Assembly: GCA_963759775.1 (NCBI GenBank)
Contig: CAVXAH010000001.1
Coordinates: forward strand, 144,682-208,681
From: an uncultured bacterium
Lineage (GTDB): Bacteria > Patescibacteriota > Minisyncoccia > Phycocordibacterales > Phycocordibacteraceae
DNA length: 64,000 nt
Direction: 5' to 3'
A model generated the notes under the pieces. It did no database searches, was not told the DNA's origin, and saw only the letters and a list, made by a program, of their open reading frames with translations. This document shows, one piece after another, positions 702 to 53,259 of this stretch. A program made the position numbers and the translations under genes. Position 1 is the first letter of the stretch, and each line of letters starts with the position of its first letter.

Positions 702-1817
702 TTAGGTTTGAAGACCACCCACAAGAGAGTAGATAGGCAAAATCACCGCAAGAGCCACTGCTACCACTCCAAGCCACACAATCACGAGGAGTACTGGCTC
801 TAAAATAATTGAAATATTTTTAGTGGTTGTCTCCACCTTTCCTTCGTACGTACTACTTATGGAAAGGAGTGTTCTTGAGAGACTTCCCGCCCGTTCCCCA
901 GTCATCACGAGACGCTGAATTGTTACTGGCATTATCCGATCAAGGTGAGGATATCCTCTAAAGGTTTGTTCAAAAGAATTTCCTTCGGCAACACTTTGTT
1001 CAAGATATATGTACAGATTCTGATACGCCGGTATCGTCGTCGCTTGCGTAAGTGTATGCAGTGCGCGGGTGATAGGAAGTCCTGCCGAGAGTAGGGTGCC
1101 GAGCAAGTAGCTGAAGCGTGCAAGCTCTACTTCTTTGATTAGATTTCCGATACCCGGAGCTCGAAGAAGCATTGCCTGACCAATGAACTTTGTTTTTGAA
1201 AAGAAAAATATAAAGAAAATTAATAAACTGAGAACCGCGAGAAAACCTGGCACCGCAACCGATCCGTGAACAGCAAGAAAATTACCCGCTCCAATCAGCA
1301 TTTTGGTGATAAGCGGAAGTTTTATCTTGAGCTGGGAGAAGACGGCGGCGAGCTTAGGGAGAATAAACCACGCAATGCCAATACCAAGAACGACCGTCAA
1401 ACTAAGTACAAATACAGGGTAAAGCATAGCCGAACGGATTCGCGAACGAAAAAGGCGAGACTTTTCTTCCTGCTCGGCAACAAGTCGCATATTTTGCGAT
1501 AATTTTCCCGACTCTTCACCGCTTCGAATAAGAGACAGCGCCGTCACCGAAAATATGTCTGGGGCGGCGAGGGCCTTCCAAAGGGGAGAGCCTTCCTGAA
1601 TATCTTCACGGATACCTTTGATGAGACGTGTGAGTGCGCGCGACCTACTTCCCTCTTCTATTGTTTGAAGCGCCTCAAGCACCGTCATACCCGAGGTAAT
1701 AAGGGTGCTTAAATTCTGGAGCAAGTAATCACGCTCACCGCCAAGACCAATTTTTGAAAAAGACAAAGAAAGGCGTGCCTTTGTCTCTTGAAAGAGTGTA
1801 GAGAGAAAGTTAGTCAT
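702..1817 (-). CDS. pilC: type II secretion system F / PilC platform protein
   Basis: This is a polytopic membrane protein with duplicated GspF-type repeats (LxxSGxxLxxAL motifs, e.g. LITSGMTVLEALQT and LLSAGLPITRALHT). The ORF extends to 1853, but the Met at 1817 (MTNFLSTLF) gives only a small overlap with pilB. Confidence 0.8.
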   Translation of the reverse strand: MTNFLSTLFQETKARLSLSFSKIGLGGERDYLLQNLSTLITSGMTVLEALQTIEEGSRSRALTRLIKGIREDIQEGSPLWKALAAPDIFSVTALSLIRSGEESGKLSQNMRLVAEQEEKSRLFRSRIRSAMLYPVFVLSLTVVLGIGIAWFILPKLAAVFSQLKIKLPLITKMLIGAGNFLAVHGSVAVPGFLAVLSLLIFFIFFFSKTKFIGQAMLLRAPGIGNLIKEVELARFSYLLGTLLSAGLPITRALHTLTQATTIPAYQNLYIYLEQSVAEGNSFEQTFRGYPHLDRIMPVTIQRLVMTGERAGSLSRTLLSISSTYEGKVETTTKNISIILEPVLLVIVWLGVVAVALAVILPIYSLVGGLQT

Positions 1818-9608: not shown

Positions 9609-9694
9609 TGCAGAAATACAGAGGCTCTGCACTCTCTTCTTATCCACAGAAAACCGCGTAGCCGAGCCGTAAAAAGAGCATCCTGTCGTAAAAT

Positions 9695-10879
9695 ATGGGA
9701 GAGAGCATGGATACTGTTATTTTCTTTGCGTATATTCTTGCGCTTTCTTTTTCCCTTTTTGTCGCCGGAGCACTCCTTGGCGCGCTTTTTTCTGCCCCAA
9801 TCCGAAAAAAAATAACCAAGCTTGTGCTTGGCGGAAGACATCGAACTGACCTTGACCTCTCAAAGACCTCTACAAACCCGCTCATAAAACCCGCGAGACA
9901 TCCGTGGGAAGCCGTTGCAACTTTCAACCCTGCGGCGCTCATGCTTGGCGACCGTATTCATCTTCTCTACCGTGCTATCGGAGTTGATGGCCTTTCACGC
10001 CTCGGCTACGCATCTACAAAAAATGCAGTCGTTATTGACGAGCGCCTTACGTCTCCGGCATACAGTCCACAAAACCCACGCATTGGCCTCCCCGGTCATA
10101 GGCGCTACTCACCCGTGCTCTACCCTTCTGGCGGAAGCTGGGGCGGTGTTGAGGACCCACGCATCGTCACCATTTCTGGAAGAGTATACGTTTCTTTTTC
10201 AGTATTTGATGGGTGGGACAACGTACGCATTGGACTTATTTCCATAAGCGAGGAAGATTTTCTCGCAAAGCGATTTGGAAACTGGAGCGCAGTTACTCTT
10301 CTCTCCCCTCCCGGCCAAATTCATAAAAACTGGGTCTTGTTCCCCGAAAAGATAAACGGCAAATTCGCGCTCATTCACAGCATTACTCCAAAAATTGAAA
10401 TCACGTATCGCGATTCGCTTGAAGCCATTGGAAATACAGAGCCCTATATTCAAAGTTGGAAAGGTGCACGCGACGCACGAAAAACACACGGTGAATTTTG
10501 GGACAGCTTTGTGCGCGGTGCCGGTCCACCGCCTCTTAAAACCGAACATGGCTGGTTGCTCTTTTATCATGCAATAGATGAGCGTGACCCCGGCAAGTAC
10601 AAACTCGGTGCGATGCTTCTTGACCTTAATGACCCGACAAAAGTGCTCCATCGTTCAAGCATTCCTGTTCTTTCGCCCGAGGAAAACTACGAGAACGAGG
10701 GGAAACCAGGCGTTGTGTATGCCTGTGGCGCGGTTATTCGGGGAGAAATGCTATACGTCTATTACGGCGGCGCCGACAAAGTGGTGTGTGTTGCCTTCGC
10801 GCCGCTTCGTACCTTTCTTAAGGCACTCATGTCCGGGAAGCGTGCGATACTAGTAAAAGCTCAAAATCCCAACACCTAA
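9695..10879 (+). CDS. GH130-family glycoside phosphorylase/hydrolase with N-terminal membrane anchor
   Basis: An N-terminal TM helix is followed by NP...WE..A.FNPAA, GVEDPRI, GAGPPPLKTEHGWLLFYHA and YKLGAMLLDLNDP...VYYGGADK, the beta-propeller signature of GH130 (mannoside-phosphorylase family). Confidence 0.75.
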   Translation: MGESMDTVIFFAYILALSFSLFVAGALLGALFSAPIRKKITKLVLGGRHRTDLDLSKTSTNPLIKPARHPWEAVATFNPAALMLGDRIHLLYRAIGVDGLSRLGYASTKNAVVIDERLTSPAYSPQNPRIGLPGHRRYSPVLYPSGGSWGGVEDPRIVTISGRVYVSFSVFDGWDNVRIGLISISEEDFLAKRFGNWSAVTLLSPPGQIHKNWVLFPEKINGKFALIHSITPKIEITYRDSLEAIGNTEPYIQSWKGARDARKTHGEFWDSFVRGAGPPPLKTEHGWLLFYHAIDERDPGKYKLGAMLLDLNDPTKVLHRSSIPVLSPEENYENEGKPGVVYACGAVIRGEMLYVYYGGADKVVCVAFAPLRTFLKALMSGKRAILVKAQNPNT

Positions 10880-10883
10880 AACT

Positions 10884-12782
10884 ATGTTTACTGTCCGACG
10901 TTCACCCCACAACCCAATCCTCTCGCCACGCCGCGAGCATCCCTGGGAAGCGCTCGCTGTTTTCAACCCGTCGGTCGTACAGGCCACAGACGGATTCCGG
11001 ATGTACTATCGTGCTCTTTCAAACCCCGACGCCCTCATCTCTCCCTACGCTGGCCAGTCAACTATTGGCGAAGCATTTTCGGAAGATGGGGCGCATTTTC
11101 ACTCACGTCGCCAAGTGCTCGTTCCGCAAGAACCTTGGGAAGCGTTTGGCTGTGAAGACCCGCGCGCAACAGTTTTTGAAGGAGTGACCTATCTCTCTTA
11201 CACCGCGATTGGCGGCTTCCCTTTTTCTGCGGACAACATCAAGGTCGCTATCGCCGTTGCAAAGGATGGGAAAAATTTTACCGAGCGACACCTTGCGACA
11301 CCTTTTAACGCGAAAGCCTTTGCACTTTTCCCCGAGCGCGTGGGCGGCAAAGTGGCCGCACTCCTTGCGGTACACACCGACCGGCCACCTTCAGAGATTT
11401 GTCTTGTGCTCGCCGATCGTGTGGAGGACTTCTGGTCAGCTGAGTTTTGGAAAAAGTGGTATGCCGACTGGCAAAGCCATGCCCTCAAACTTCGTCGAGA
11501 CGAGCGCGACCATGTGGAAGTCGGCGCGCCTCCTATAAAAACTGATGAGGGGTGGCTTCTCTTCTATTCCTATATAGAAGATTATTTTGGCGGTGGCGAG
11601 CGCGTCTTTAGTGTTGAGACGGCTCTGCTTGAGACAAATGACCCTTCAAAAATTGTGGCGCGCACAGAGTCCATCCTCGTTCCTGAAGAAATTTATGAGC
11701 GGTACGGCATTGCGCCAGACATTGTGTTCCCGACAAGCGTCGTGCGAAGCGATGAAGACACGATTGACCTCTGGTATGGCGCGGCCGACACCACCTGCGC
11801 GAAGGCTTCAATTCGCTTCTCTGATTTGCTTGATGCACTCTCTCCGAAAAAGGCGCGCGCGCTTACGCGCGCGAAAGAGAATCCGATTCTCACTCCTCGT
11901 GGAGATGGCTTTGAAAGTCTCGCGGTCTTTAATACTGCGGCGGTTGACATTGACGGCTCGGTTCGTCTCCTCTATAGAGCGATGGACCATGCACACACCT
12001 CTACTATAGGACTCGCAGAGAGTGGCGACGGCATTCATATTGATTCCCGGTCATCGACTCCTGTGTACGTGCCGCGTGCCGATTTTGAGCAAAAACGTGG
12101 AAGCCAAGACGGTAACTCCGGTTGCGAGGACCCACGCGCGGTTGTGATAGACGACCGTCTGTATATGACCTATACGGCGTACGACGGCGTGGTTTCGCCG
12201 CGTGGTGCAATAAGCTCTATTTCTCTTGATGATTTTCGTGCCAAACGCTTTGACGCGTGGAGCACGCCTTTCCTTTTGACACCAGACAATGTGGACGACA
12301 AAGACTTGGCCCTACTCCCGGAAAAAGTAAAAGGAAACTTCTTGCTCTACCACCGCATCAGCAGTCGCATTTGCGCCGATCTTCTTCCTGATCTCGCTTC
12401 CGGCAAACGCGTCTCGCGTTGCATTGAAATCCTTGGACCACGCCACGGCATGTGGGACGGCGTACGCATAGGCATGGCGGGACCACCTATAAAAGTAGAG
12501 GCAGGCTGGCTCTTCATTTATCACGGTGTCTCACGGCACGGCACGTATCGTCTTGGTGCGGCACTTCTTGACCCCTCCGGTACCGAGGTGCTTGCGCGCA
12601 GCGCCGACCCTCTCTTCGAGCCTGAGACTGACTACGAAATGAAAGGTGAAGTTAACCGAGTTGTCTTTTCTTGCGGGCAGGTTGTACGCGGCGACACGCT
12701 CTTCCTCTACTACGGTGGCGCCGATACAGTTACCGGTGTTGCAACCGGCTCTTTGTCGCATATTGTGAAAACGCTGTCATAA
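10884..12782 (+). CDS. tandem double GH130 domain protein
   Basis: There are two complete GH130 modules. The first runs from NPILSPRREHPWEALAVFNPSVV...CEDPRA...LWYGAADT. The second runs from NPILTPRGDGFESLAVFNTAAV...CEDPRA...LYYGGADT. Confidence 0.75.
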   Translation: MFTVRRSPHNPILSPRREHPWEALAVFNPSVVQATDGFRMYYRALSNPDALISPYAGQSTIGEAFSEDGAHFHSRRQVLVPQEPWEAFGCEDPRATVFEGVTYLSYTAIGGFPFSADNIKVAIAVAKDGKNFTERHLATPFNAKAFALFPERVGGKVAALLAVHTDRPPSEICLVLADRVEDFWSAEFWKKWYADWQSHALKLRRDERDHVEVGAPPIKTDEGWLLFYSYIEDYFGGGERVFSVETALLETNDPSKIVARTESILVPEEIYERYGIAPDIVFPTSVVRSDEDTIDLWYGAADTTCAKASIRFSDLLDALSPKKARALTRAKENPILTPRGDGFESLAVFNTAAVDIDGSVRLLYRAMDHAHTSTIGLAESGDGIHIDSRSSTPVYVPRADFEQKRGSQDGNSGCEDPRAVVIDDRLYMTYTAYDGVVSPRGAISSISLDDFRAKRFDAWSTPFLLTPDNVDDKDLALLPEKVKGNFLLYHRISSRICADLLPDLASGKRVSRCIEILGPRHGMWDGVRIGMAGPPIKVEAGWLFIYHGVSRHGTYRLGAALLDPSGTEVLARSADPLFEPETDYEMKGEVNRVVFSCGQVVRGDTLFLYYGGADTVTGVATGSLSHIVKTLS

Positions 12783-13594: not shown

Positions 13595-15262
13595 CTAGTT
13601 GCGACAAAGTCGCGCGAGACGGATAGTTTCGTAGGAATATTCTCCGCGAAGCGCATTAAAAACTGGCGCAAGTCGGTCGCTGGTTGCTGTTCTAAATGCT
13701 TCGCGTATTTCATCACGCGCACTCTGCGAAAGTAGGTGCTCAAAGTCGTTTTTCACCAGTGTGCCGAGTTCGGCAAGATCTTCAAGATGTTTCACCACCG
13801 TGCTTTCGGTGAGTCCGCGCGCTTTCGCCGCGTCTTTGAGACTCCTTGCATCCCGCACCGCAGAAAGCGTCTCCGCAAGTCTTCCCGGCATCCCCTTAAC
13901 ACTTTTCTTCCCACTTCCTGCTTCCAGATCGCCGCTTACTGTGACCCCGCCCATTACCTTCACATATCTCTTTTGCATTTCTACTATTTCAAGCGGCGGA
14001 AGATTCGAAAACGTGCCGTTCGCGGTTTCTGATAGTTCCCGAAACTCTATATCTTTCTCAAGAATCTCTGGATGTACCGCAAGCGCGCGTTCATTGATAC
14101 CAAGGAGGTGAAGCCCCTCAAGCCGGCGCACACGCGAAAGCGCCACGTACCCTTGCCCATATTCAAATGCTTGCGAAAGGTCTATCACTGCCGCGTCCAT
14201 GCTCATGCCTTGGCTCTTATGTACCGTCATGGCGTACGCAAGGCGGAGGGGCACTTGAGCAATTGAGGCCTTCACCTTCCCATTTTCTTCCACCTGCCAT
14301 TCCATGGGCTCCGCCGTTACATACTTCCCGTCCTTTACCCGTACGACTGGCAGACCGCTCCCCAGCTCAAAATCTGCAACCGTACCGAGTGTGCCGTTTA
14401 CAAATTTCCCCTGGGGAGAGTTTTTCGTAAACATGACTGCCGCACCCATCTTAAGCTCAAGCACCTCAGGCGAAAGACATCCGCGCATAAGACCTTCCAC
14501 CATGGAATCCTTTCCTTTTGAACTCATATAGAATTTCTTGGGAACACCCTTGAGCTTGGCGAGCTCCGCCGCATTGATACGATCTACATCAGCATTGTGC
14601 GAAAAAAGTCTTGGGAGCCCTTCGGGAGTTTTCTCCACTTCCATTTTGCGCGCCATGAGGTGTTCGTAGTGCAGTTCCTCCACTGTACCGCTTCGTATTG
14701 CAGAAAGTACCGAAAGAAAATGCACATCATCTTGGCGGTGTTGCTCCGTGAGATAGCAGATAAGGGGGTTCTGCGCATGCCATGAGGCGGAGTCGTAGGC
14801 AAATTTCACTTCACGACCCATTTTCGCGACGGGCGGAAGCTGAAAAAAGTCGCCGACCAAAATTACCTGCAGTCCGCCAAATGGTTTTGCGACTCGCCGG
14901 ACTTCCCTACACACGGCATCCGCCGCTTCAAAGGTTGCGGCAGAAAGCATTGAAACTTCATCAATAATGAGCACTTTTGCTTTTTGAATACGGCGTGCCA
15001 CATGCTCCTTACTTGCGATTCGGTCTACCTCGGCACGCGAAAGCGAGTCGGCGATACCAATCCCACTCCACGAGTGGAGCGTCATACCGCCCACGTGTGT
15101 TGCGGCAATTCCTGTTGCGGCCGTAACCGAGGGTTCAATGCCGCACGCACGAAGCCATGCGACAAACGCATTAATGGTGTGCGTCTTTCCACTCCCCGGC
15201 TCCCCAGTAAGAAATACGTTTGCACCCGTTTTTAAAATAGTGAGTGCTTCCGCCTGCGTCAT
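13595..15262 (-). CDS. PIF1/RecD-like superfamily 1 DNA helicase with C-terminal HTH domain
   Basis: It has Walker A LTGEPGSGKTH, Walker B VLIIDEVSML, QLPPV, and the late motifs TVHKSQGMS and GQGYVALSR. The likely start is MTQAEAL at 15262; the ORF-track extension to 15364 reads through a repeat element. Confidence 0.85.
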   Translation of the reverse strand: MTQAEALTILKTGANVFLTGEPGSGKTHTINAFVAWLRACGIEPSVTAATGIAATHVGGMTLHSWSGIGIADSLSRAEVDRIASKEHVARRIQKAKVLIIDEVSMLSAATFEAADAVCREVRRVAKPFGGLQVILVGDFFQLPPVAKMGREVKFAYDSASWHAQNPLICYLTEQHRQDDVHFLSVLSAIRSGTVEELHYEHLMARKMEVEKTPEGLPRLFSHNADVDRINAAELAKLKGVPKKFYMSSKGKDSMVEGLMRGCLSPEVLELKMGAAVMFTKNSPQGKFVNGTLGTVADFELGSGLPVVRVKDGKYVTAEPMEWQVEENGKVKASIAQVPLRLAYAMTVHKSQGMSMDAAVIDLSQAFEYGQGYVALSRVRRLEGLHLLGINERALAVHPEILEKDIEFRELSETANGTFSNLPPLEIVEMQKRYVKVMGGVTVSGDLEAGSGKKSVKGMPGRLAETLSAVRDARSLKDAAKARGLTESTVVKHLEDLAELGTLVKNDFEHLLSQSARDEIREAFRTATSDRLAPVFNALRGEYSYETIRLARLCRN

Positions 15263-15321
15263 CGGGCGATTATATCCTAGAGCACGTTCAAAAACCCTAA
15301 CCCGAAGGCGAGTGCATGCAT

Positions 15322-15398
15322 CGGAGGGGGTTGCGAAGCGCGACGGCGCGAGCATTTCAGGCATTTTTTCAGCAGAAAAAATGCCGTACCCGAGGAGG
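15322..15398. repeat. 77 nt intergenic repeat, copy 1 (family A), with 10 bp hairpin at 15360-15385
   Basis: About 85 percent identical to 26059-26135. The hairpin is ggcatttttt-cagcag-aaaaaatgcc. The other copy has ggtatttttt...aaaaaatacc, a compensatory change. Confidence 0.8.
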
Positions 15399-15434
15399 CA
15401 TGCACCCGCCTGAGGGAGGTTTCGGAATTTGCGA

Positions 15435-16121
15435 TTAGTACCCGGCTATGAGTTCCATTCCACTCGAGTCCGATAGTTGCTTAAATCTACTCGTCGTTGC
15501 CGTTGTTTCTGGCTTCCCAATCAAAGTTGCATACACGACAAGCCGTTTATCGTAGGTCATTCCTTCCTTCGCGTCATATATCCAATTTCCATCACACGTA
15601 ATCAGGGTCAGGCGTGCTCCCTCTGTGGGATTGCTTGTAATAGCCCGCATGGGCACTTCGTGGTACGGGTACGTCACAAGTTCGTCAACCGTAAACTGAT
15701 GTGATTCCCCGCGCCGATTCGTCACTTCTATCACCTCTCCGACTTTCAAACTTGCAAGATTCTTGAAAACCCCAGAAAGGCCGAGACCGTTGTTCCGGTG
15801 ACCATACATGACTGCCGTTCCCGACTGCCCCGGAGCAGGGCCGTAGCCATACCAGCCAACGTCATTATAGTTTTTAGGTGCCGCCATGCGATCGCCCTCA
15901 GTGACTCCAAGATCTTGTACAAAAGCGTCTATTGAAAGCGCTGCGATGGTGATACGGAGTGGGCGAAGCTCGGCGAGTGGAATATAAGGATACAAATTTT
16001 GAGTGGGGCTGGTTTCCGTGTGTGGCGCAAATACGAAAGCGTATGCCGTCGTGCGTACCAAAAGAATGGCCGCGACCAACATTGCCGCACCCACTCCATA
16101 CGTGAATAGGTGACGTGTCAT
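15435..16121 (-). CDS. sortase (transpeptidase) with N-terminal membrane anchor
   Basis: It has the catalytic His context VMYGHRN, the TLxTC motif RLTLITCDG and a downstream Arg (KRLVVYA). Confidence 0.8.
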   Translation of the reverse strand: MTRHLFTYGVGAAMLVAAILLVRTTAYAFVFAPHTETSPTQNLYPYIPLAELRPLRITIAALSIDAFVQDLGVTEGDRMAAPKNYNDVGWYGYGPAPGQSGTAVMYGHRNNGLGLSGVFKNLASLKVGEVIEVTNRRGESHQFTVDELVTYPYHEVPMRAITSNPTEGARLTLITCDGNWIYDAKEGMTYDKRLVVYATLIGKPETTATTSRFKQLSDSSGMELIAGY

Positions 16122-19910: not shown

Positions 19911-19951
19911 CGCAAACAAAACACCCGCGGCTTTGCCGCGGGTGTTTTGTT
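19911..19951. terminator. bidirectional rho-independent terminator
   Basis: The sequence is aaaacacccgcgg-cttt-gccgcgggtgtttt, flanked by an A-run and a T-run, between convergent genes. Confidence 0.8.
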
Positions 19952-25136: not shown

Positions 25137-25143
25137 GAGTCGG

Positions 25144-25992
25144 TCATTTAGACGTCTCCAGTAACTCCTCTCCGTCGCCCACGAGACTCATGCGGTAGAT
25201 ATCGAAGGAGTTTTGCCCCTCAAACATGTCAGATGGGTTTGGAAGATAAATGCGCCGCCTGGCGATTTCGTTCGTTGCGTCCGCAATAAGTCGGTGGAAT
25301 ACCGTGAACTCCTCGGCGCATTTACGGAAGTCTATGACGTAGCGGCGTAGTTGTGCCCTGCCGTCCTTGTTCTTTCGCTTTTTGCATTCATACACAATGA
25401 ACCGACAGACTGGTTTCCCAAATAGTTCTCGCACCGTGTAGTAATTGAAAATGGCTTGGATGATGAAAAGTGACTTCGTTGCACCCTCTTTGCTGAAGGA
25501 GTCCACAAACTTGTGGTCCACAATATCAACCGCGCCTCTTTCAAGCGGAGACTCAACCACGAGGTCGGAAATGGCTTTGAGTGGAAGCGGCAATCCATTA
25601 ACTTCCACCACGCCTCGCACCTCTACCCCAAGCACCTTGTGCCTGGGCGCTCGAGCGAGGTAAAAGCCGATAGCTTGCAGATATTCCCGCTCCATGGAGA
25701 GACGCTTTTCTTTTTTTGCCTTTCGAGTTTTCGCTCTTCCAAAGTCAATCTCAAAATCAGCGACCCCGCGCAAATATTCAAGCCCTCGCTCTGTCGCCGT
25801 ATTTTTGTCAACGCCCTTATAAAAGTGCTCAAGTGCCAGGTGCCCCGCGCGCCCGATGATTCCGGCAGGGGTTGAGGGTGTGTCATACACCTCTTCTACA
25901 TACCGCTTGTACCAGGCAAGGGGATTCCGCAGGAACGACATCAGTGACGAATGGCTCCAGTGTTTTATGGGGTATCGCCGCTTCGCCGTCAT
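25144..25992 (-). CDS. PD-(D/E)XK nuclease superfamily protein (RecB/Cas4-like fold)
   Basis: It has GRAGHLALEHF, ISDLVVE...VDIVDHKF (D...D-x-K) and a later Q..FNYY motif. The likely start is MTAKRRYPIKHWSHSS at 25992; the ORF-track extension reads through repeat copy 2. Confidence 0.6.
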   Translation of the reverse strand: MTAKRRYPIKHWSHSSLMSFLRNPLAWYKRYVEEVYDTPSTPAGIIGRAGHLALEHFYKGVDKNTATERGLEYLRGVADFEIDFGRAKTRKAKKEKRLSMEREYLQAIGFYLARAPRHKVLGVEVRGVVEVNGLPLPLKAISDLVVESPLERGAVDIVDHKFVDSFSKEGATKSLFIIQAIFNYYTVRELFGKPVCRFIVYECKKRKNKDGRAQLRRYVIDFRKCAEEFTVFHRLIADATNEIARRRIYLPNPSDMFEGQNSFDIYRMSLVGDGEELLETSK

Positions 25993-26058
25993 GGAGGAAG
26001 TATACGCAAAAATCTCATTCGGCACATTCCTGAAGCGAGCACGCGAGGGGAAGTGTAT

Positions 26059-26135
26059 CCGAGGGGGTCGTGAAGCGCGACGGCGCAAACGTTTCAGGTA
26101 TTTTTTCAGCAGAAAAAATACCGTACCCGAGGAGA
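26059..26135. repeat. 77 nt intergenic repeat, copy 2 (family A), hairpin at 26097-26122
   Basis: See copy 1 at 15322-15398. This copy lies between the rpoD stop and the nuclease promoter. Confidence 0.8.
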
Positions 26136-26165
26136 CACTTATCCGAGCGGGCTTTGCAATGAGCT

Positions 26166-27365
26166 TTAGTAGCTCTTTAGGTGCCGGGCTTTGCCGTGGG
26201 TGCGGATCTTTTCAAGCGCCTTGGCCTCAATTTGTCTGATGCGTTCGCGGGTGACACCGAACTCCTTCCCCACTTCTTCAAGTGTGTGGTAAATGCCGTC
26301 CAGAAGACCGTGGCGCATTTCAAGAATTTTGCGTTCTTTTGGCGAGAGGTCATCAAGGATAGTGCGGACTTGTTCGGTCAAAATGCGCTCGGATGACTCC
26401 TGCACGGGAGAAGGAATTTTGTCGTCGGCGATGAAGTCACCGAGCGTAGACTTCTCATCGTCGTCGGAACCGACTGGGTTCTCAAGTGAGAGGGTGTCTT
26501 GGTTGATTTTCTCAATTTGGTAAATCTTCTCTGGTTCAACACCCATTTCAACCGCAATCTCTTCCGGCTGTGGGTCGCGACCGAGGACCTGTGCAAGGCG
26601 GCGGGAGATCTGTTTGTATTTAGCAATGGTTTCCACCATGTGGACGGGGATGCGGATGGTGCGGGACTGGTCGGCAAGCGCGCGCGTAATAGCCTGGCGA
26701 ATCCACCACGTGGCGTACGTTGAGAATTTGTAGCCCTTCTTCCAGTCAAATTTGTCTACGGCACGGAAAAGGCCGAGGTTTCCTTCCTGGATGAGGTCAA
26801 GGAGCGTGAGGTCAGGTGAGCGACCAACGTACTTCTTTGCAATAGAAACCACGAGACGGAGGTTTGAGCGGGCAAGAATGTTGCGTGCCTCGCTGTCGCC
26901 CCTCTCAATACGCTGTGCAAGCGTGCGCTCTTCAAGAGCGGTGAGGAGCGGGTACTGACCGATTTCTCGAAGGTAAATCTGAATTGAGTCGTAGCTCGTA
27001 GACTCGCGGCCTTTGATGTTGCGGGTTGCGAGGTATTCGTCGGCATTGTCCTCAAGCATGCCTCCTTCCAAAATGTCGATACCAGCAATCGTAAAACGCT
27101 CGTAGAGGGCCTCAAGAAAATCCACGTCGTCTTCAACGTGCGGAAAAGCTTTGATGATTTCGTTGTAGGTAATATAGCCGCGCTCTTTGCCCTTCTTGAT
27201 GAGCTCCTCGGCGGACAGTGTCTTTGCGTGAGCGGCTTTCGCCTTCGCTCCTTTCACCGCGAGGCGTACCACACTCTTCCCGCGTGCTTTCACCGGGCGT
27301 GCAGAAATACGGCGCGCTTTTTGCGCAACCTTTTTAGACTTCTTCGTAGAAGTTTTCGCCGCCAT
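26166..27365 (-). CDS. rpoD: RNA polymerase sigma-70 factor RpoD
   Basis: It has region 2 ([31 protein letters not shown]), region 3, and region 4.2 ([24 protein letters not shown]). Confidence 0.9.
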
Positions 27366-42489: not shown

Positions 42490-43542
42490 ATGCCCAAAGA
42501 AACCTTCTCGTCCCTTCAGCACTTTTTGTTCCTTGGCGTGCTCCTTGGGGTTACCGCTCTGTTCATCTGGCTTCTCTCTCCTTTCGTTATGAGTGTGTTC
42601 TGGGCGCTCGTGCTCGCCATTGTGCTTCATCCGGTCTTCGTTCATCTTTCTGCGCGAATGAAAGGTCCGGTCATTGCAGCGCTCACTACCATTCTTCTCA
42701 CCCTAGTCATTGTCGGCGTTCCTCTCTACTTCATTGGGTCGCGCACCGCACATGAAGGACTTGCGCTTTACCACCACATTGCATCTGGCGGGGTGGACTT
42801 CAATGCTATAACCGAAAATCCACTCGTTGCGAAAACTCTGCTCTTCATTGGAGTTGAGCCTAGCGGAGCGGTAGCCGGAGTAAGTGCTTTTATACGAGAC
42901 ACGAGCGGAACCATCGCAGGAGAAGCGCTCTCCATTGGCGCAGCAACGGCGAGCGTGCTTCTTAAAACCGCTATCACGCTCTATCTCCTCTTCTTCTTTT
43001 TGAAAGATGGTGTAGCGATCGCACGCTACTTTCAACGCATCATTCCTCTTGGGGACGAGCGCGAACGCCTCCTCTTTAAACGCTTTACCTCAACGACCCG
43101 CGCCGTTCTCAAAGGAACCCTCATTGTTTCCATCGCTCAAGGTCTTATCGGAACCATTATCTTCTTGATCGCGGGTGTGCAAAGTGCGGTGCTGTGGGGT
43201 GTCTTGATGGCGTTTTGTGCCATGATCCCGGCCGTCGGCCCTTTCCTCGTTTGGCTTCCTATCGGGCTCTTCTTGCTTGTCACGGGTAGCGTGTGGCAAG
43301 GAGCACTCGTCCTCATTGCCGGAGCATTCATCATTGGCAGTGTAGACAATATCCTTAGACCGATTCTTGTGGGACGCGATATTGAAATGCCGGATGCGCT
43401 TGTGCTTCTTTCCATCTTGGGAGGCATCGCTACCTTCGGTGTCGCTGGCGTTATCATCGGCCCCGTCATCGGTGCCCTGTTCCTCTCGATTTGGGATTTG
43501 TTTGGAAAGGACTTTAGCGAAGAAATAGCCCTCCACGGGTAG
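42490..43542 (+). CDS. AI-2E family transporter (PerM/YhhT-like permease)
   Basis: It is a polytopic membrane protein with the characteristic C-terminal region ILRPILVGRDIEMPDALVLLSILGG. The ATG at 42490 is preceded by TACAAT plus 6 nt; the ORF-track start is 42469. Confidence 0.75.
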   Translation: MPKETFSSLQHFLFLGVLLGVTALFIWLLSPFVMSVFWALVLAIVLHPVFVHLSARMKGPVIAALTTILLTLVIVGVPLYFIGSRTAHEGLALYHHIASGGVDFNAITENPLVAKTLLFIGVEPSGAVAGVSAFIRDTSGTIAGEALSIGAATASVLLKTAITLYLLFFFLKDGVAIARYFQRIIPLGDERERLLFKRFTSTTRAVLKGTLIVSIAQGLIGTIIFLIAGVQSAVLWGVLMAFCAMIPAVGPFLVWLPIGLFLLVTGSVWQGALVLIAGAFIIGSVDNILRPILVGRDIEMPDALVLLSILGGIATFGVAGVIIGPVIGALFLSIWDLFGKDFSEEIALHG

Positions 43543-43679
43543 CGTATCCCAAAATCCTCATCTGCTTCGTTGCTCGCTCCGATGCGCCCTCACCATAGAT
43601 CTGACTATGGCTCGGTTTGCTTCTCGCTCGCGCCTTGCATCTGAAGGATTTTTGGACACGCTACAAGAAACAAAATGTG

Positions 43680-43711
43680 AAAACCGGGCACGCATGCGTG
43701 CCCGGTTTTTT
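43680..43711. terminator. rho-independent terminator (palindromic, usable on both strands)
   Basis: The sequence is aaaaccgggcacgc-at-gcgtgcccggtttttt, immediately downstream of ORF 43727-44029 on the reverse strand. Confidence 0.75.
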
Positions 43712-43726
43712 CTCGCATAAAAAACT

Positions 43727-44029
43727 TTAGTGTCCTTCGATTTGCCGACGAAGTACTTTCGGAGCTCGAAGTTTTCCAAGAAGCGCGAGACTCTCCTTGC
43801 CTGTGAGACGACGACCCATGTAAAGGTGCGAGTAGGAAAGAACCGAGAAAGCAACTGGGTGCGCGTGAACCGATTGGCTCTTGCAAATGACCTTCAGAAG
43901 TTCCTGCTTGTCTTCTTCCGTCATCAAGCGCTCGTGCTGTCCAGATGTTGCGAGAGCCTGATTTTTCCTCAACTCCATAGCTGCTGCGATCACTTCAGGG
44001 TACATGGTATTCCCCGGTGGTGGATCCAC
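43727..44029 (-). CDS. hypothetical 100 aa protein with weak XRE-type HTH-like C-terminus (cassette X cargo)
   Basis: The segment SVLSYSHLYMGRRLTGKESLALLGKLRAPKVL resembles the second half of an XRE HTH. The GTG start is preceded by TATACT plus 5 nt, and a terminator lies downstream. Confidence 0.4.
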   Translation of the reverse strand: MDPPPGNTMYPEVIAAAMELRKNQALATSGQHERLMTEEDKQELLKVICKSQSVHAHPVAFSVLSYSHLYMGRRLTGKESLALLGKLRAPKVLRRQIEGH

Positions 44030-44053
44030 GTATAAGTATACCTTGCCCCGGTC

Positions 44054-44138
44054 TCACCAACGCATTTTATCAAGCCCAGCTTGAGCGGCGGCCTGTTCAG
44101 CCTCTTGCTTTGATTGCCCTTCTCCGCGCGCTATTTCT
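44054..44138 (-). repeat. diverged duplicate of the last 85 nt of rnc (including a stop codon)
   Basis: About 82 percent identical to 44853-44937. It encodes EIARGEGQSKQEAEQAAAQAGLDKMRW-stop, against ...AQNGLEKMRW-stop in the real gene. Confidence 0.85.
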
Positions 44139-44196
44139 CTCAATTTGCGATTTGTCTGGAAAGGACTTTAGTGAGGAGATAGCGTTGCATGGGTAG
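44137..44196 (+). repeat. diverged duplicate of the last 59 nt of perM (including a stop codon)
   Basis: It aligns to 43484-43542 and encodes LSICDLSGKDFSEEIALHG-stop, against LSIWDLFGKDFSEEIALHG-stop in the real gene. It abuts the rnc fragment back-to-back. Confidence 0.85.
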
Positions 44197-44248
44197 AACT
44201 TTCTAAACTATCCAACACCTGGTGTTGGATAAATTAAGACAAAAATAA

Positions 44249-44270
44249 CCCCGCGCTCGGATGCGCGGGG
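44249..44270 (-). terminator. rho-independent terminator of ORF 44283-44726
   Basis: The stem ccccgcgc-tcggat-gcgcgggg is followed on the reverse strand by ttattttt. A second hairpin lies at 44209-44231. Confidence 0.7.
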
Positions 44271-44282
44271 AAACAAAGAATC

Positions 44283-44726
44283 TTATTCTTGCAACTCTGT
44301 CTTTAGCAGCGCCAGGAAAATGTCCTCGAATGTTGCTTTCGGTTGGCGGGACAACAACTTCACCATTGAGGAAACGTTCCTACCCGCCTCAATCTGAAGA
44401 GTCACGAAATTCTGTGCCGACCCGCCCCTCTTCACCTTGAGGAATCGAAATGCGAGTAATTCTTTCTCACTCACTTTCAAAACCTTGGCCAAAGGCGGTA
44501 TACGGGACTTCGAAATCGCTCTGTCCCCGAGACGAAATTCACGATAGATACGACCCTCTGAAACAGACCCTGTGCCGAGCAAAAGCGCGACCCGCTCTCC
44601 AATCTGAGTAGGAGTCAAGAGAAGATCGACTTCTCTTTGCTTGAGGAAATTGCTCTGCTCGTCGATGTCTTGTTCTTTTTTTTGACTCGAATCTACAACG
44701 GTTATTTGAAAAGTCTTCATTTCCAC
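44283..44726 (-). CDS. XRE-like helix-turn-helix protein, 147 aa (cassette Y cargo)
   Basis: LTPTQIGERVALLLGTGSVSEGRIYREFRLGDRAISKSRIPPLAKVLKVSEKELL fits the XRE HTH pattern. It has its own TATAAT box and a GGGAG Shine-Dalgarno sequence 7 nt before the ATG. Confidence 0.6.
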   Translation of the reverse strand: MEMKTFQITVVDSSQKKEQDIDEQSNFLKQREVDLLLTPTQIGERVALLLGTGSVSEGRIYREFRLGDRAISKSRIPPLAKVLKVSEKELLAFRFLKVKRGGSAQNFVTLQIEAGRNVSSMVKLLSRQPKATFEDIFLALLKTELQE

Positions 44727-44775
44727 ACTCCCATTTCACGCCACGGAATGTGACGATTCCGCCATTTATTATATA

Positions 44776-44799
44776 CTACCACCTCATCTTGTCAAGACC
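44776..44799 (-). repeat. third, 24 nt copy of the rnc stop region
   Basis: Compare ctaccacctcatcttgtcaagacc with ctaccacctcatcttttctagacc at 44853-44876. Together they flank the family B hairpin as direct repeats. Confidence 0.75.
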
Positions 44800-44801
44800 T
44801 G

Positions 44802-44838
44802 CCCCGCACTAAACCTCGAGGACTCGGTTAGTACGGGG
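44802..44838. repeat. small palindromic repeat, family B, copy 1
   Basis: Compare ccccgcactaaacctcgaggactcggttagtacgggg with ccccgcactaaatgctcgaggactcgcagttagtacaggg at 48714-48753. Confidence 0.75.
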
Positions 44839-44852
44839 TAAACTTGCGGCTG

Positions 44853-45536
44853 CTACCACCTCATCTTTTCTAGACCGTTTTGGGCGGCAGCTTGTTCAGC
44901 CTCTTGCTTTGATTGCCCTTCTCCACGCGCTATTTCTTCTTTATCCAAAAAGATGCCAACGGTAAAAAGCTTTGCGTGGTCGGGACCAACCTGGGAAATG
45001 GTTTTGTATGCGGGAGTAACGCCACGCTTGTCCTGTGCTGCTTCTTGAAAACGACTCTTCGCGTCTTGGTAGCTCTTGTTTGCAATGACCTGATCAATCT
45101 TTCCGTAAAGATTATTGGCAATAAATGCCTCAGCGCCTTCGTACCCCTGGTCAAGGTAAATCGCGCCGATAATAGCTTCAAACGCATTTGCCAGAATAAT
45201 TTGGCGCGCACGGCCAGTGTCCTTTGCCTCGCCTTTTGAAAGGAGCAGGTAGCCGTTGATGCCGATTGCTCCCGCAACTTCGGCGAGCGAGACCGTGTTC
45301 ACGAGCGCCGCACGATAGCTGGTGAGCTCCCCTTCTGGTTTTGCAGGAAATTTGTCGTACAGAAAACGCGTCACGGCAAGTTCAAGCACCGCATCGCCCA
45401 AAAATTCAAGACGCTCGTTGTGGGACGAAGCCAGCCCCTTGTTTTCATTCAAATACGAACGATGTGTCAGCGCCTCGGCAAGAAGGCCGAGATCTTTAAA
45501 AGAAATACCGAGTTTCTTGGCGAAAGCCTCGAAGTC
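44853..45536 (-). CDS. rnc: ribonuclease III
   Basis: It has the RNase III signature NERLEFLGDAVL and a C-terminal dsRBD (KSRFQEAAQ...GEGQSKQEAEQAAA). The likely start is MDFEAFAKKLG at 45536. Confidence 0.9.
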   Translation of the reverse strand, partial: DFEAFAKKLGISFKDLGLLAEALTHRSYLNENKGLASSHNERLEFLGDAVLELAVTRFLYDKFPAKPEGELTSYRAALVNTVSLAEVAGAIGINGYLLLSKGEAKDTGRARQIILANAFEAIIGAIYLDQGYEGAEAFIANNLYGKIDQVIANKSYQDAKSRFQEAAQDKRGVTPAYKTISQVGPDHAKLFTVGIFLDKEEIARGEGQSKQEAEQAAAQNGLEKMRW

Positions 45537-53225: not shown

Positions 53226-53259
53226 GAAAAACACCCGCGATTTTGTCGCGGGTGTTTTC
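53226..53259. terminator. bidirectional rho-independent terminator
   Basis: The sequence is aaaaacacccgcga-ttttg-tcgcgggtgtttt, between convergent genes. Confidence 0.8.

What the first reader, a model, noticed from the sequence alone, without database searches (positions are those of the whole stretch)
15322..15398. Shared 77 nt element with a covarying hairpin upstream of both a PIF1-like helicase and a PD-(D/E)XK nuclease
The stretches 15322-15398 and 26059-26135 are about 85 percent identical. Each lies between the stop of an unrelated upstream gene (sortase; rpoD) and the -10 box of the downstream gene (helicase; nuclease), about 60-140 nt before the ATG.

The central 10 bp stem differs at one base pair by a compensatory double change (ggCatttttt/aaaaaatGcc against ggTatttttt/aaaaaatAcc). 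This argues that the hairpin is under selection. The flanks (gaagcgcgacggcgc, ccgtacccgaggag) are also conserved.

Two DNA-metabolism enzymes 10.7 kb apart carrying the same upstream element suggests one of three things:
- co-regulation, for example a damage or foreign-DNA regulon;
- a shared transcriptional insulator or terminator;
- a small mobile repeat with an insertion preference.

The ORF track reads through both copies and produces spurious N-terminal extensions.
Basis: seen in the sequence. Interest (0 to 1): 0.6.

Follow-up and report, generated by a model that had tools for sequence, protein, structure and literature searches.

The report
Conserved structured intergenic repeat of Patescibacteria
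The two look-alike stretches are copies of a folded, non-coding repeat found many times per genome across the tiny "candidate phyla radiation" bacteria, next to unrelated genes, so it is not a shared switch for the helicase and nuclease, but the repeat family seems undescribed and under strong selection.

Summary
The two stretches are 88% identical. They are the cores of two roughly 100-nt elements, at 15306-15411 and 26047-26144.

Each element is a long outer stem capped by a three-way junction. Seven base pairs differ between the two copies by compensatory double changes.

The co-regulation idea is refuted:
- The same element occurs in about 55 loci of Patescibacteria genomes and in at least 70 metagenome loci, roughly one copy per 30 kb.
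- It sits in intergenic spacers, mostly right after stop codons. The 113 flanking proteins fall into 141 Pfam families, and none recurs more than three times.
- Relatives of this genome lack it upstream of the helicase (L001) and upstream of the nuclease (L127). They carry it in spacers that are empty in the window.

The family itself is notable:
- The core sequence is nearly invariant across distant lineages, and all helices covary.
- The outer stem differs from copy to copy but stays paired.
- Wobble pairs and folding energy single out one strand, the window's + strand, which is opposite to all four flanking genes.
- Some gene junctions keep the element across distant genomes, sometimes with the core flipped.

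It matches no Rfam family and I found no paper on it. It lacks terminator T-tracts, a promoter of its own and an associated transposase. The mechanism is unresolved.

The parts
15306..15411 (+). Copy A, whole element (outer stem P1 to P1). The structured strand is +, antisense to sortase and helicase.
   Evidence: Folds. Covariance model core hit 15318-15398, 65.0 bits.
15312..15319 (+). Copy A, P1 5' arm GTGCATGC. It pairs with 15398-15405 (GCATGCAC). Inner P1 pairs are TC 15321-15322 with GA 15395-15396, and GGG 15326-15328 with CCC 15389-15391.
   Evidence: This stem has a different sequence in copy B but is paired in both copies.
15332..15354 (+). Copy A, P2 hairpin: TGC-GAA-GCGC-GACG-GCGC-GA-GCA. 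That is a 3-bp stem, G/A internal loop, 4-bp stem and GACG loop.
   Evidence: The family shows covariation of both sub-stems, and the GA/GA positions are replaced by Watson-Crick pairs in some copies.
15355..15359 (+). Copy A, joining strand J2/3, TTTCA. It is conserved across the family (TTCAG or GAG).
15360..15385 (+). Copy A, P3 hairpin GGCATTTTTTC-AGCA-GAAAAAATGCC.
   Evidence: Its C-G pair is T-A in copy B.
15386..15388 (+). Copy A, joining strand J3/1, GTA. It is part of the family-wide CGTAC.
26047..26144 (+). Copy B, whole element. The structured strand is +, antisense to rpoD and nuclease.
   Evidence: Fold. Covariance model core hit 26055-26135, 65.7 bits.
26051..26056 (+). Copy B, P1 5' arm AAGTGT. 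It pairs with 26135-26140 (ACACTT). TCC 26058-26060 pairs with GGA 26131-26133.
26069..26091 (+). Copy B, P2 hairpin: CGT-GAA-GCGC-GACG-GCGC-AA-ACG.
   Evidence: Two compensatory pairs relative to copy A.
26097..26122 (+). Copy B, P3 hairpin GGTATTTTTTC-AGCA-GAAAAAATACC.
15435..15437 (-). Stop codon of sortase, 37 nt before the core of copy A in the direction of the gene.
26166..26168 (-). Stop codon of rpoD, 31 nt before the core of copy B in the direction of the gene.
15269..15274 (-). TATAAT, 6 nt before the helicase ATG (15262). This is the gene's own promoter-like box, outside the element. It is kept in the relative L001, which has no element there.
25999..26004 (-). TATACT, 6 nt before the nuclease ATG (25992). 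It lies outside the element and is kept in L127, which has no element there.

Best explanation
SHOWN. The two stretches are the cores of two copies of a multi-copy, non-coding, structured palindromic element family that is spread through Patescibacteria (CPR) genomes.

Each copy is a long hairpin. The outer stem P1 has a median of 24-30 paired positions, and its sequence differs from copy to copy. It is capped by a conserved three-way junction of about 75 nt, made of:
- P2, a stem holding a tandem G.A, with a GNYG loop;
- P3, an A/T-rich hairpin;
- conserved joining strands GG.U, TTCAG/GAG and CGTAC.

Copies lie in intergenic spacers, mostly directly after stop codons, beside unrelated housekeeping genes, at about one per 30 kb. 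Some gene junctions keep the element across distant genomes, sometimes with the core flipped. Other positions are gained or lost between close relatives. Selection acts on the fold of one strand, the + strand of the window, whatever the direction of the neighbouring genes.

The element lying 5' of a helicase and a nuclease here is therefore coincidence. These are the elements that follow sortase and rpoD.

INFERRED.
- The element folds as a single strand of + polarity, either RNA or single-stranded DNA.
- A factor conserved in these bacteria recognises it through the invariant junction.
- At its site the very stable hairpin serves as a boundary between transcription units: a block to read-through or to 3' exonucleases, or a double-stranded RNA processing site. 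Because P1 is symmetric, this role would survive inversion.
- New copies arise by duplication of the whole hairpin, P1 included.
For: Family and copy number.
- The pattern GCGCGACGGCGCN5TTTCAGG finds 85 loci, and about 55 of them are Patescibacteria copies with the same core. Several genomes hold 5 or more copies.
- The model R1 finds 69 copies in 396 kb of those loci, 12 of them beyond the seeding copy.
- It finds exactly 2 copies in the window.
- The window's own subtype, with the CAGCAG loop, occurs in at least 70 of 100 metagenome loci tested.

Structure.
- In the genome-derived set, 97.4% of cells are paired, with 98 double-change cells against 16.4+-3.2 in shuffles.
- In the metagenome set, 91.3% are paired, with 348 double-change cells against 99.6+-7.6, in all helices. 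Versions with the 3' partner slid by 1-3 columns fall to 31-72% paired.

No link to gene function.
- The 113 flanking proteins hit 141 Pfam families, none more than 3 times.

Presence and absence between relatives.
- L001 (helicase 76% identical) has no element upstream of the helicase. It has one between two GH130 genes, where the window has a 4-nt spacer.
- L127 (nuclease 70% identical) has no element upstream of the nuclease. It has one in the DsbA/nuclease spacer, where the window has 7 nt.

Position relative to genes.
- Convergent spacers are enriched, odds ratio 2.7, p=0.003.
- Stop codons lie 8-35 nt from the core.
- The predicted P1 overlaps the last codons of the flanking ORF in most copies.

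Strand.
- G.U against A.C in model pairs is 28:4 in the first set and 60:17 in the second, p=9e-7.
- The bias is seen in three of the four gene contexts, 28:4, 12:3 and 40:7.
- The core is more stable on the sense strand in 53/54 and 62/67 copies with RNA parameters, and in 50/54 and 66/67 with DNA parameters.

Long residence and flipping.
- At least 12 groups of copies sit after orthologous genes in different genomes.
- At least 4 of these groups hold the core in opposite orientations, for example L016/L027 and L042/L015.

P1 belongs to the copied unit.
- P1 consensus sequences are shared by copies at different loci, for example AAGAATAATGTTTTT, or the outer GAATTACGAAACTC motif.
- The L001 copy and window copy A share CGAGTGCATG.
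Against: - No molecule has been observed, because no transcript data could be consulted.
- No promoter-like signal is enriched upstream of the structured strand, and there are no promoter hits in the window copies. In about half of the copies, including both window copies, a + polarity RNA would need unexplained antisense transcription.
- No T-tract follows P1. At least 5 T in 8 nt occurs in only 6/71 (sense) and 8/71 (antisense) copies of the window's subtype. Classical intrinsic termination is therefore unlikely, and the boundary role rests on position alone.
- The near-perfect pairing of P1 could be kept by template switching in quasi-palindromes rather than by selection. G.U counts in whole-element folds are the same on both strands, 95 against 102.
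- In convergent contexts the wobble bias vanishes, 7:7.
- The covariance-model alignments lean slightly towards G.U.
- No transposase, target-site duplication or clean empty-site/filled-site junction was found, so the mode of spread is unknown.
Confidence: 0.6

Rival explanations
1. It is a cis-regulatory leader or operator that co-regulates the helicase and the nuclease, as a DNA-damage or foreign-DNA regulon.
For: - Both copies lie 60-140 nt 5' of DNA-metabolism genes.
- The structure is conserved.
Against: - The structured strand is antisense to both genes.
- Both genes keep a -10 box 6 nt before the ATG, downstream of the element.
- Orthologous genes in L001 and L127 have the same -10 box and no element.
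- The 113 flanking proteins of other copies are unrelated housekeeping genes.
- The orientation relative to neighbouring genes varies, and it flips at orthologous sites.
Confidence: 0.02
2. It is a canonical Rho-independent, bidirectional transcription terminator of sortase and rpoD.
For: - The element lies directly after stop codons.
- It is enriched between convergent genes.
- The hairpin is very stable.
- AT-rich copies often have an A-run before the stem and a T-run after it.
Against: - The window copies have no T-tract after the stem, and the terminator scan finds nothing significant.
- In the window's subtype, only 6/71 and 8/71 copies have at least 5 T in the 8 nt after P1.
- The genome has textbook terminators elsewhere, at 19918-19948 and 53228-53258.
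- A stem of 24-45 bp with a 75-nt structured cap and an invariant junction is far more than termination needs.
Confidence: 0.1
3. It is a family of independently transcribed small RNA genes of + polarity. The conserved three-way junction is the functional part, for example a protein-binding RNA or a ribozyme.
For: - Wobble and energy asymmetry is strand-specific and independent of the neighbouring genes.
- Covariation in all helices, with invariant loops and joining strands, is typical of functional RNAs.
- P3 tolerates an inserted branch in L064.
- The core is conserved where flanking proteins are only 58-86% identical.
Against: - No -10-like signal is positionally enriched upstream, and there is no promoter in the window copies.
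- No terminator T-tract is present.
- Spacers are almost filled by the element, leaving little room for a promoter.
- It matches no Rfam family, including all known small ribozymes.
Confidence: 0.2
4. It is a purely selfish, non-autonomous mobile element of the MITE or REPIN type. A transposase encoded elsewhere moves it as single-stranded DNA, and it has no role for the host.
For: - It is multi-copy, intergenic and palindromic.
- It is gained and lost between relatives.
- Subfamilies share stem sequences at unrelated loci.
- A preference for convergent spacers is expected for tolerated insertions.
- The strand-specific fold would fit a single-strand intermediate.
Against: - No transposase appears among the 113 flanking proteins, although only the commonest families were listed.
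- No target duplication was found.
- The termini vary while the interior is conserved, which is the reverse of MITEs and REPINs.
- Many positions are kept across distant genomes, with an unchanged core.
- There are no copies in viral contigs, phages or plasmids.
- The hosts are streamlined genomes with median spacers of about 23 nt.
Confidence: 0.25
5. It is a double-stranded DNA or cruciform site for a nucleoid or topology protein, as REP/BIME elements are for gyrase and IHF. It would be independent of transcription.
For: - The function tolerates inversion.
- The nested palindromes P1, P2 and P3 could extrude as a cruciform.
- The spacing along the genome is regular, about one per 30 kb.
Against: A cruciform or duplex site should be indifferent to strand. 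Yet G.U exceeds A.C by 88 to 21 overall, and the tandem G.A is kept on one strand.
Confidence: 0.08

Closest known systems
REP/BIME elements and REPINs (REP doublets forming hairpins, mobilised by RAYT transposases) of proteobacteria
   Same: - Dispersed, extragenic, multi-copy hairpin-forming repeats.
- Placed at gene 3' ends and between convergent genes.
- Either orientation occurs.
- Long vertical persistence, with pairing kept by compensatory change.
- Thought to act as single-stranded folds.
   Different: - REPs are 20-40 nt simple palindromes tagged by GTAG or CGTC. In REPINs the conserved part is the two ends and the loop is free.
- Here the ends vary and a 75-nt branched cap is nearly invariant.
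- No RAYT was seen.
- The host phylum is different.
ERIC/IRU (enterobacterial repetitive intergenic consensus, about 127-bp imperfect palindromes)
   Same: - Similar size, about 100-150 nt.
- An imperfect palindrome in transcribed intergenic regions.
- Both orientations occur.
- Sequence is highly conserved across genera.
- Presence or absence varies between orthologous spacers.
   Different: - No sequence relation was shown.
- ERIC is one long hairpin conserved along its length, without a conserved three-way-junction cap on a variable stem.
- ERIC is restricted to enterobacteria and vibrios.
Bacterial MITEs such as Correia/NEMIS (Neisseria), RUP, BOX and bcr1
   Same: - Small non-coding repeats with inverted ends.
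- Intergenic, co-transcribed with neighbouring genes, and forming stable RNA hairpins.
- Some are RNase III substrates or carry regulatory signals.
   Different: - MITEs have conserved terminal inverted repeats and target-site duplications, and they derive from known insertion sequences.
- Here the termini are copy-specific, apart from one subfamily with the motif GAATTACGAAACTC.
- No duplication or parent insertion sequence was found.
Intercistronic RNase III processing hairpins (for example phage T7 R sites) and mRNA 3' stabiliser hairpins
   Same: - A long, nearly perfect duplex placed between cistrons, directly after stop codons.
- The duplex part would work in either orientation.
   Different: - This resemblance is purely inferred, because no cleavage data exist.
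- Those sites are not a conserved multi-copy family with an invariant branched cap.

Membership tests
Any Rfam 15 family (riboswitches, small ribozymes, sRNAs, leaders) | Score at or above the family's gathering threshold. | tested here: not met
   There were no matches at gathering threshold in the whole window. At E<=10 around each copy, the only hit over the element scored 11.4 bits against a gathering score of 61 (sot2652); copy B had no hit at all.
Cis-regulatory leader / regulon element | Fixed orientation and position 5' of functionally related genes, conserved at orthologous genes. | tested here: not met
   - Orientation varies.
- Flanking proteins fall into 141 unrelated Pfam families.
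- The element is absent upstream of the helicase in L001 and upstream of the nuclease in L127.
Rho-independent terminator | G+C-rich hairpin followed directly by a T-tract. | tested here: not met
   - The scans are at or below shuffle expectation at both copies.
- At least 5 T in the 8 nt after P1 occurs in 6/71 (sense) and 8/71 (antisense) copies of the window's subtype.
REP / REPIN-RAYT | A 20-40 nt palindrome with a conserved GTAG or CGTC tag at its foot, and REP doublets with conserved ends. | tested here: not met
   - The conserved unit is a 75-nt branched core, while the ends of the hairpin vary.
- GACG occurs only as the P2 loop, and GTAC lies at the foot of P3.
REP / REPIN-RAYT | A single-copy RAYT (Y1 HUH transposase) gene in the same genome, flanked by the repeats. 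| not testable with these tools
   - Only 8-kb loci and one 64-kb window were available.
- No transposase family was among the commonest families of the 113 flanking proteins.
- Whole genomes could not be scanned.
MITE | Conserved terminal inverted repeats shared by all copies. | tested here: not met
   - P1 differs completely between copies, even at orthologous sites.
- Only subfamilies share part of the stem or an outer GAATTACGAAACTC motif.
MITE | Target-site duplication, and clean empty-site against filled-site pairs. | tested here: inconclusive
   Empty and filled orthologous spacers exist, but the sequences are too diverged to define junctions or duplications.
Integron attC site | R''/R' core sites (RYYYAAC ... 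GTTRRRY) at the base of the hairpin, in arrays next to an integrase. | tested here: not met
   - The stem bases differ in sequence between copies (for example GTGCATGC and AAGTGT) and show no GTTRRRY or RYYYAAC core site.
- Copies are dispersed singly between housekeeping genes.
Structured functional RNA (generic criteria) | Covariation supporting every helix, with conserved unpaired nucleotides. | tested here: met
   - 0 of 500 shuffles reach the observed covariation, and versions with the 3' partner slid by 1-3 columns fall to 31-72% paired.
- GG.U, GA/GA, GNYG, gAg and CGUAC are conserved.
Structured functional RNA (generic criteria) | Evidence that the structured strand is transcribed. | not testable with these tools
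   - No expression data were available.
- No conserved promoter was found.
- In about half of the copies a neighbouring gene reads in on that strand.

The most novel reading that the evidence does not exclude
The invariant three-way-junction core may be a functional molecule in its own right and a previously unrecognised class. It would be a small RNA (or single-stranded DNA module) of one polarity that is conserved across Patescibacteria and kept at defined gene boundaries in these minimal genomes. It might act as a ligand for a conserved CPR-specific protein, or as a catalytic or processing RNA. The variable long stem would only anchor or present it.
Probability: 0.3. Interest if true: 0.8.

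Novelty: new variant of a known kind. Interest (0 to 1): 0.55.

Why it matters
Patescibacteria (CPR) have some of the smallest and most compact bacterial genomes; median spacers in the loci studied here are about 23 nt. Hardly any of their non-coding elements have been described.

A 100-150 nt element kept in what extrapolates to about twenty copies per genome is therefore unlikely to be idle. Its core is nearly invariant where flanking proteins are only 58-86% identical. Every helix covaries, and the fold of one strand is under selection.

The element offers several things:
- a handle on how these organisms delimit transcription units or process transcripts;
- a candidate ligand for an unknown conserved factor;
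- a marker for CPR DNA in metagenomes.

It also has a practical use. The element causes false N-terminal extensions in gene calls, for example the 586-aa public version of this helicase.

Tried and rejected
Searches that found nothing.
- Rfam at gathering threshold and at E<=10 gave no family.
- ARAGORN found no tRNA or tmRNA in the window.
- Exact look-up of the window's helicase in the contig index failed for three start variants.
- The viral contig scan, the phage BLAST and the plasmid BLAST gave no copies.
- Five literature searches, including searches for the literal core sequence, found nothing relevant.

Ideas considered and dropped.
- Hammerhead, twister-type or other ribozymes. The local GA-stem-GA motif resembles hammerhead stem II, but the CUGANGA and GAAA strands are absent and no Rfam model matches.
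- tRNA-like structure. There is no T-loop and no ARAGORN hit.
- attC, IS200/IS605 ends or PATE. P2 and P3 are unlike each other, there are no core sites, and the orientation is the opposite of what a fold on the lagging-strand template would predict.
- A promoter inside the core. I found no acceptable -35/-10 pair on either strand by inspection.
- An upstream promoter at a fixed distance. There is no enrichment.

Tests of orientation.
- Orientation relative to replication gives only weak trends. GC skew on the structured strand is negative in 37/62 and 25/38 loci, and neighbouring copies share orientation in 9 of 12 cases. Flips at orthologous sites argue against a strict rule.
- Splitting the wobble test by gene context shows the bias does not depend on which neighbour reads in.
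Full report
OBSERVATION

Window 15317-15400 and 26054-26137 are 88% identical over 84 nt, and they are the only such pair in the 64-kb window (alignment). All four neighbouring genes are on the minus strand:
- sortase, 16121->15435;
- a PIF1/HTH_40 helicase whose real start is the ATG at 15262;
- dnaG-rpoD, with rpoD 27365->26166;
- a PDDEXK_1 nuclease starting at 25992.

In the direction of the genes, each element follows a stop codon (sortase, rpoD) and precedes the next gene. That next gene has TATAAT or TATACT exactly 6 nt before its ATG. The mechanical ORFs do run into the element (13595-15364 and 25144-26088), and the public version of this helicase (586 aa) carries that false extension, while its relatives are 548-571 aa.

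THE ELEMENT IS LARGER AND MORE STRUCTURED THAN REPORTED

Folding about 100 nt around either copy gives the same three-way junction on both copies, with z-scores of -4.4 to -5.7. It has three helices:
- an outer stem P1, whose sequence differs between the copies but pairs in both (GTGCATGC/GCATGCAC against AAGTGT/ACACTT: four double changes);
- P2, with a 3-bp stem showing two double changes (UGC/GCA against CGU/ACG), a G/A internal loop, an invariant GCGC-GACG-GCGC tip;
- P3, the A/T hairpin, with one double change.

That makes seven compensatory pairs between two sequences, with no disrupted pair. Rfam has no matching family, either at gathering threshold over the window or at E<=10 around each copy.

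WHAT ORGANISM, AND IS THE ELEMENT FOUND ELSEWHERE

The helicase places the window in Paceibacterota/Parcubacteria (CPR), on a contig of 594,792 bp. The next best relative is 76% identical.

A scan of one genome per species for GCGCGACGGCGCN5TTTCAGG returned 85 loci. About 55 are Patescibacteria, labelled Nomurabacteria, Paceibacterota, Adlerbacteria, Parcubacteria and 'Saccharibacteria'. They carry the same core, with the consensus AAGGGGTTTCGAGCGCGACGGCGCGAGAATTTCAGGATTTTTTAAGCTTCAAAAAATCCGTACCGGC, inside a long hairpin whose arms differ from copy to copy. The remaining loci are G+C-rich chance or coding matches.

Several genomes contribute five or more copies. A covariance model of the core (R1) gave these results:
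- only the two known copies in the window with filters off, at 65.7 and 65.0 bits, with the next hit at 11 bits;
- 69 copies in 396 kb of the Patescibacteria loci, including 12 beyond the seeding copy, which is about one per 30 kb, and some divergent variants.

At least 70 of the first 100 contain the element, at 42-64% G+C. There were no copies in viral contigs, phage records or plasmid records.

STRUCTURE IS UNDER SELECTION

On the model alignments:
- In the first set, 97.4% of cells are paired, with 98 double-change cells against 16.4+-3.2 in shuffles.
- In the more diverse second set, 91.3% are paired, with 348 double-change cells against 99.6+-7.6. The covariation score is 0.59 against 0.17, every helix is supported, and versions with the 3' partner slid by 1-3 columns fall to 31-72% paired.

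These alignments are fitted to the model, which favours the structure somewhat. A MAFFT-based alignment shows the same picture for P2.

The unpaired bases GG.U, the GA/GA pair flanking the P2 tip, the GNYG loop, gAg and CGUAC are conserved. In a few copies the GA/GA positions become Watson-Crick pairs (UA/UA, GA/UC, CC/GG, CG/CG), which shows that they lie within the helix. L064 carries two extra hairpins in place of the P3 loop.

WHICH STRAND FOLDS

In model pairs, G.U (possible only on the window's + strand, here called 'sense') outnumbers A.C (G.U on the other strand):
- 28 to 4 in the first set;
- 60 to 17 in the second set, p=9e-7.

The core is more stable on the sense strand in 53/54 and 62/67 copies with RNA parameters, and in 50/54 and 66/67 with DNA parameters. 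The wobble bias does not depend on which neighbouring gene reads into the element: it is 28:4 with only an antisense-reading gene, 12:3 with only a sense-reading gene, 40:7 with neither, and 7:7 in convergent contexts.

The known replication and transcription mutation biases would, if anything, predict the opposite sign. That is reasoning from established knowledge of GC skew. The outer stem gives no strand signal: G.U counts in whole-element folds are 95 against 102.

CONTEXT

The 113 flanking proteins hit 141 Pfam families, and none occurs in more than three. They include DnaB, GAPDH, RF-1, YidC, GrpE, ribosomal proteins, trigger factor and ComEC. No transposase is among the frequent families.

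Convergent spacers are enriched: 17 of 55 occupied spacers against 53 of 376 empty ones, odds ratio 2.7, p=0.003. Stop codons lie mostly 8-35 nt from the core on either side. The predicted P1 (median 24-30 paired positions, up to more than 45) overlaps the last codons of the neighbouring ORF in most copies.

Orientation relative to co-directional genes differs by subfamily:
- in the AT-rich subfamily it is 20 antisense to 14 sense as tabulated (window copy A, whose helicase ORF overlaps the element, was classed as convergent);
- in the window's subfamily it is 20 antisense to 5 sense, and the structured strand is opposite to the coding majority in 28 of 38 loci.

T-tracts after the stem are rare: 6/71 (sense) and 8/71 (antisense) copies of the window's subtype have at least 5 T in 8 nt. 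The window copies give no promoter or terminator hit above shuffle expectation, whereas this genome has textbook terminators at 19918-19948 and 53228-53258. No -10-like signal is enriched upstream of the structured strand.

ORTHOLOGOUS POSITIONS

- L001 (helicase 76%, GH130 81% identical) has stop, a short spacer, TATAAT, 6 nt and ATG before its helicase, with no element. It has a divergent copy in a 192-nt spacer between two GH130 genes, where the window has 4 nt.
- L127 (nuclease 70% identical) has TATACT, 6 nt and ATG, with no element before the nuclease. It has a copy in the DsbA/nuclease convergent spacer, where the window has 7 nt.

The element is nevertheless not simply a fast-moving insert. 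At least 12 groups of copies follow orthologous genes in different genomes, with flanking proteins 58-86% identical and some groups spanning both subfamilies. In these groups the core is almost unchanged, while P1 is entirely different yet still paired. In at least four groups (for example L016/L027, L042/L015, L004/L094, L074/L145) the core has the opposite orientation relative to the same genes. This is what recombination between the inverted arms would produce.

Stem sequences shared by copies at unrelated loci show that P1 is part of what gets copied. Examples are the AAGAATAATGTTTTT arm, an outer GAATTACGAAACTC...GAGTTTCGTAATTC motif, and CGAGTGCATG shared by the L001 copy and window copy A.

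INTERPRETATION

Shown:
- The window holds two members of a phylum-wide, multi-copy, structured intergenic repeat family.
- Their position before a helicase and a nuclease is coincidental.
- The fold of one strand is under selection, independently of the neighbouring genes.
- The core is conserved far beyond neutral expectation.

Inferred:
- A conserved factor recognises the folded single strand through the invariant junction.
- The large hairpin acts as a boundary after the upstream gene, as a read-through or exonuclease block or as a double-stranded RNA processing site. This role would survive inversion.
- New copies arise by duplication of the whole hairpin.

Template switching in quasi-palindromes could keep P1 perfect without selection on RNA. 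That is established knowledge of quasi-palindrome mutagenesis and was not tested here.

The main gap is the nature of the folding molecule. A + polarity RNA lacks a visible promoter in about half of the copies, including both in the window. Single-stranded DNA of that polarity would be the leading-strand template in most loci, and that strand is not usually exposed.

COMPARISON AND NOVELTY

The element works most like REP/REPIN, ERIC or MITE-type repeats. It fails their defining features: it has no GTAG/CGTC-tagged small palindrome and no conserved termini, and neither a target-site duplication nor a partner transposase was detected. It inverts their layout, with a variable stem and an invariant branched cap.

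It is not a canonical terminator, riboswitch, attC site or any Rfam family. Five full-text searches, including searches for the literal core sequence, found no description. That library is incomplete, so prior description cannot be excluded.

I rate it a new variant of a known kind. The regulon reading that motivated the finding is refuted. The family itself merits follow-up.

Noticed in passing
window 19918-19948 and 53228-53258: Two 90%-identical perfect palindromes, AAAACACCCGCGGCTTTGCCGCGGGTGTTTT. They are textbook bidirectional intrinsic terminators, which shows that this genome uses ordinary terminators alongside the structured repeat (D10/I4).
   Followed up: partly
window 15269-15274 and 25999-26004; L001 175-180; L127 about 1214-1219 (minus strand): TATAAT or TATACT lies exactly 6 nt before the ATG of the helicase and the nuclease. 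The arrangement is conserved in the orthologues of two relatives. It suggests leaderless or near-leaderless mRNAs in this lineage.
   Followed up: partly
window 13595-15364 (public protein P0001, 586 aa) and 25144-26088: Gene calls run into the element and add false N-terminal residues. Relatives of the helicase are 548-571 aa.
   Followed up: yes
window 54371-55233 and 55253-55387: Four tandem 255-nt units are followed by a GGN-rich (glycine-rich) run, apparently within a large repetitive surface-type protein gene (D1, D2, D6).
   Followed up: no
window 43469-44937: Pairs of 74-84 nt repeats, 80-84% identical and spaced 654-799 nt apart. They probably belong to tandem paralogous genes (D4, D5).
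   Followed up: no
L003, L018, L083, L126 (similar in L146 and L160): outermost part of the hairpin: A conserved outer inverted motif, GAATTACGAAACTC ... GAGTTTCGTAATTC, surrounds the element in several unrelated genomes and loci. Either this is a subfamily with conserved termini, or the element is nested in a second palindromic repeat.
   Followed up: partly
L016/L027, L042/L015, L004/L094, L074(4400)/L145: At orthologous gene junctions the conserved core is inverted between genomes while the flanking genes keep their order. This is as expected from recombination between the inverted arms.
   Followed up: partly
L064 3310-3415 (minus strand): A variant copy in which the P3 loop is replaced by two extra hairpins. 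It lies one gene away from a 46%-identical PIF1-type helicase.
   Followed up: no
L123 about 9650-9850: An element copy lies directly downstream of a tRNA-like sequence (GGGAGTTCGATTCTCCC...).
   Followed up: no
window 10879-10884 against L001 6731-6922; window 25137-25143 against L127 243-354: The gene-to-gene spacers of 4 and 7 nt in the window are expanded in relatives to 192 and about 110 nt, and the expanded spacers contain the element. This illustrates how much of the intergenic DNA in these genomes the repeat accounts for.
   Followed up: yes
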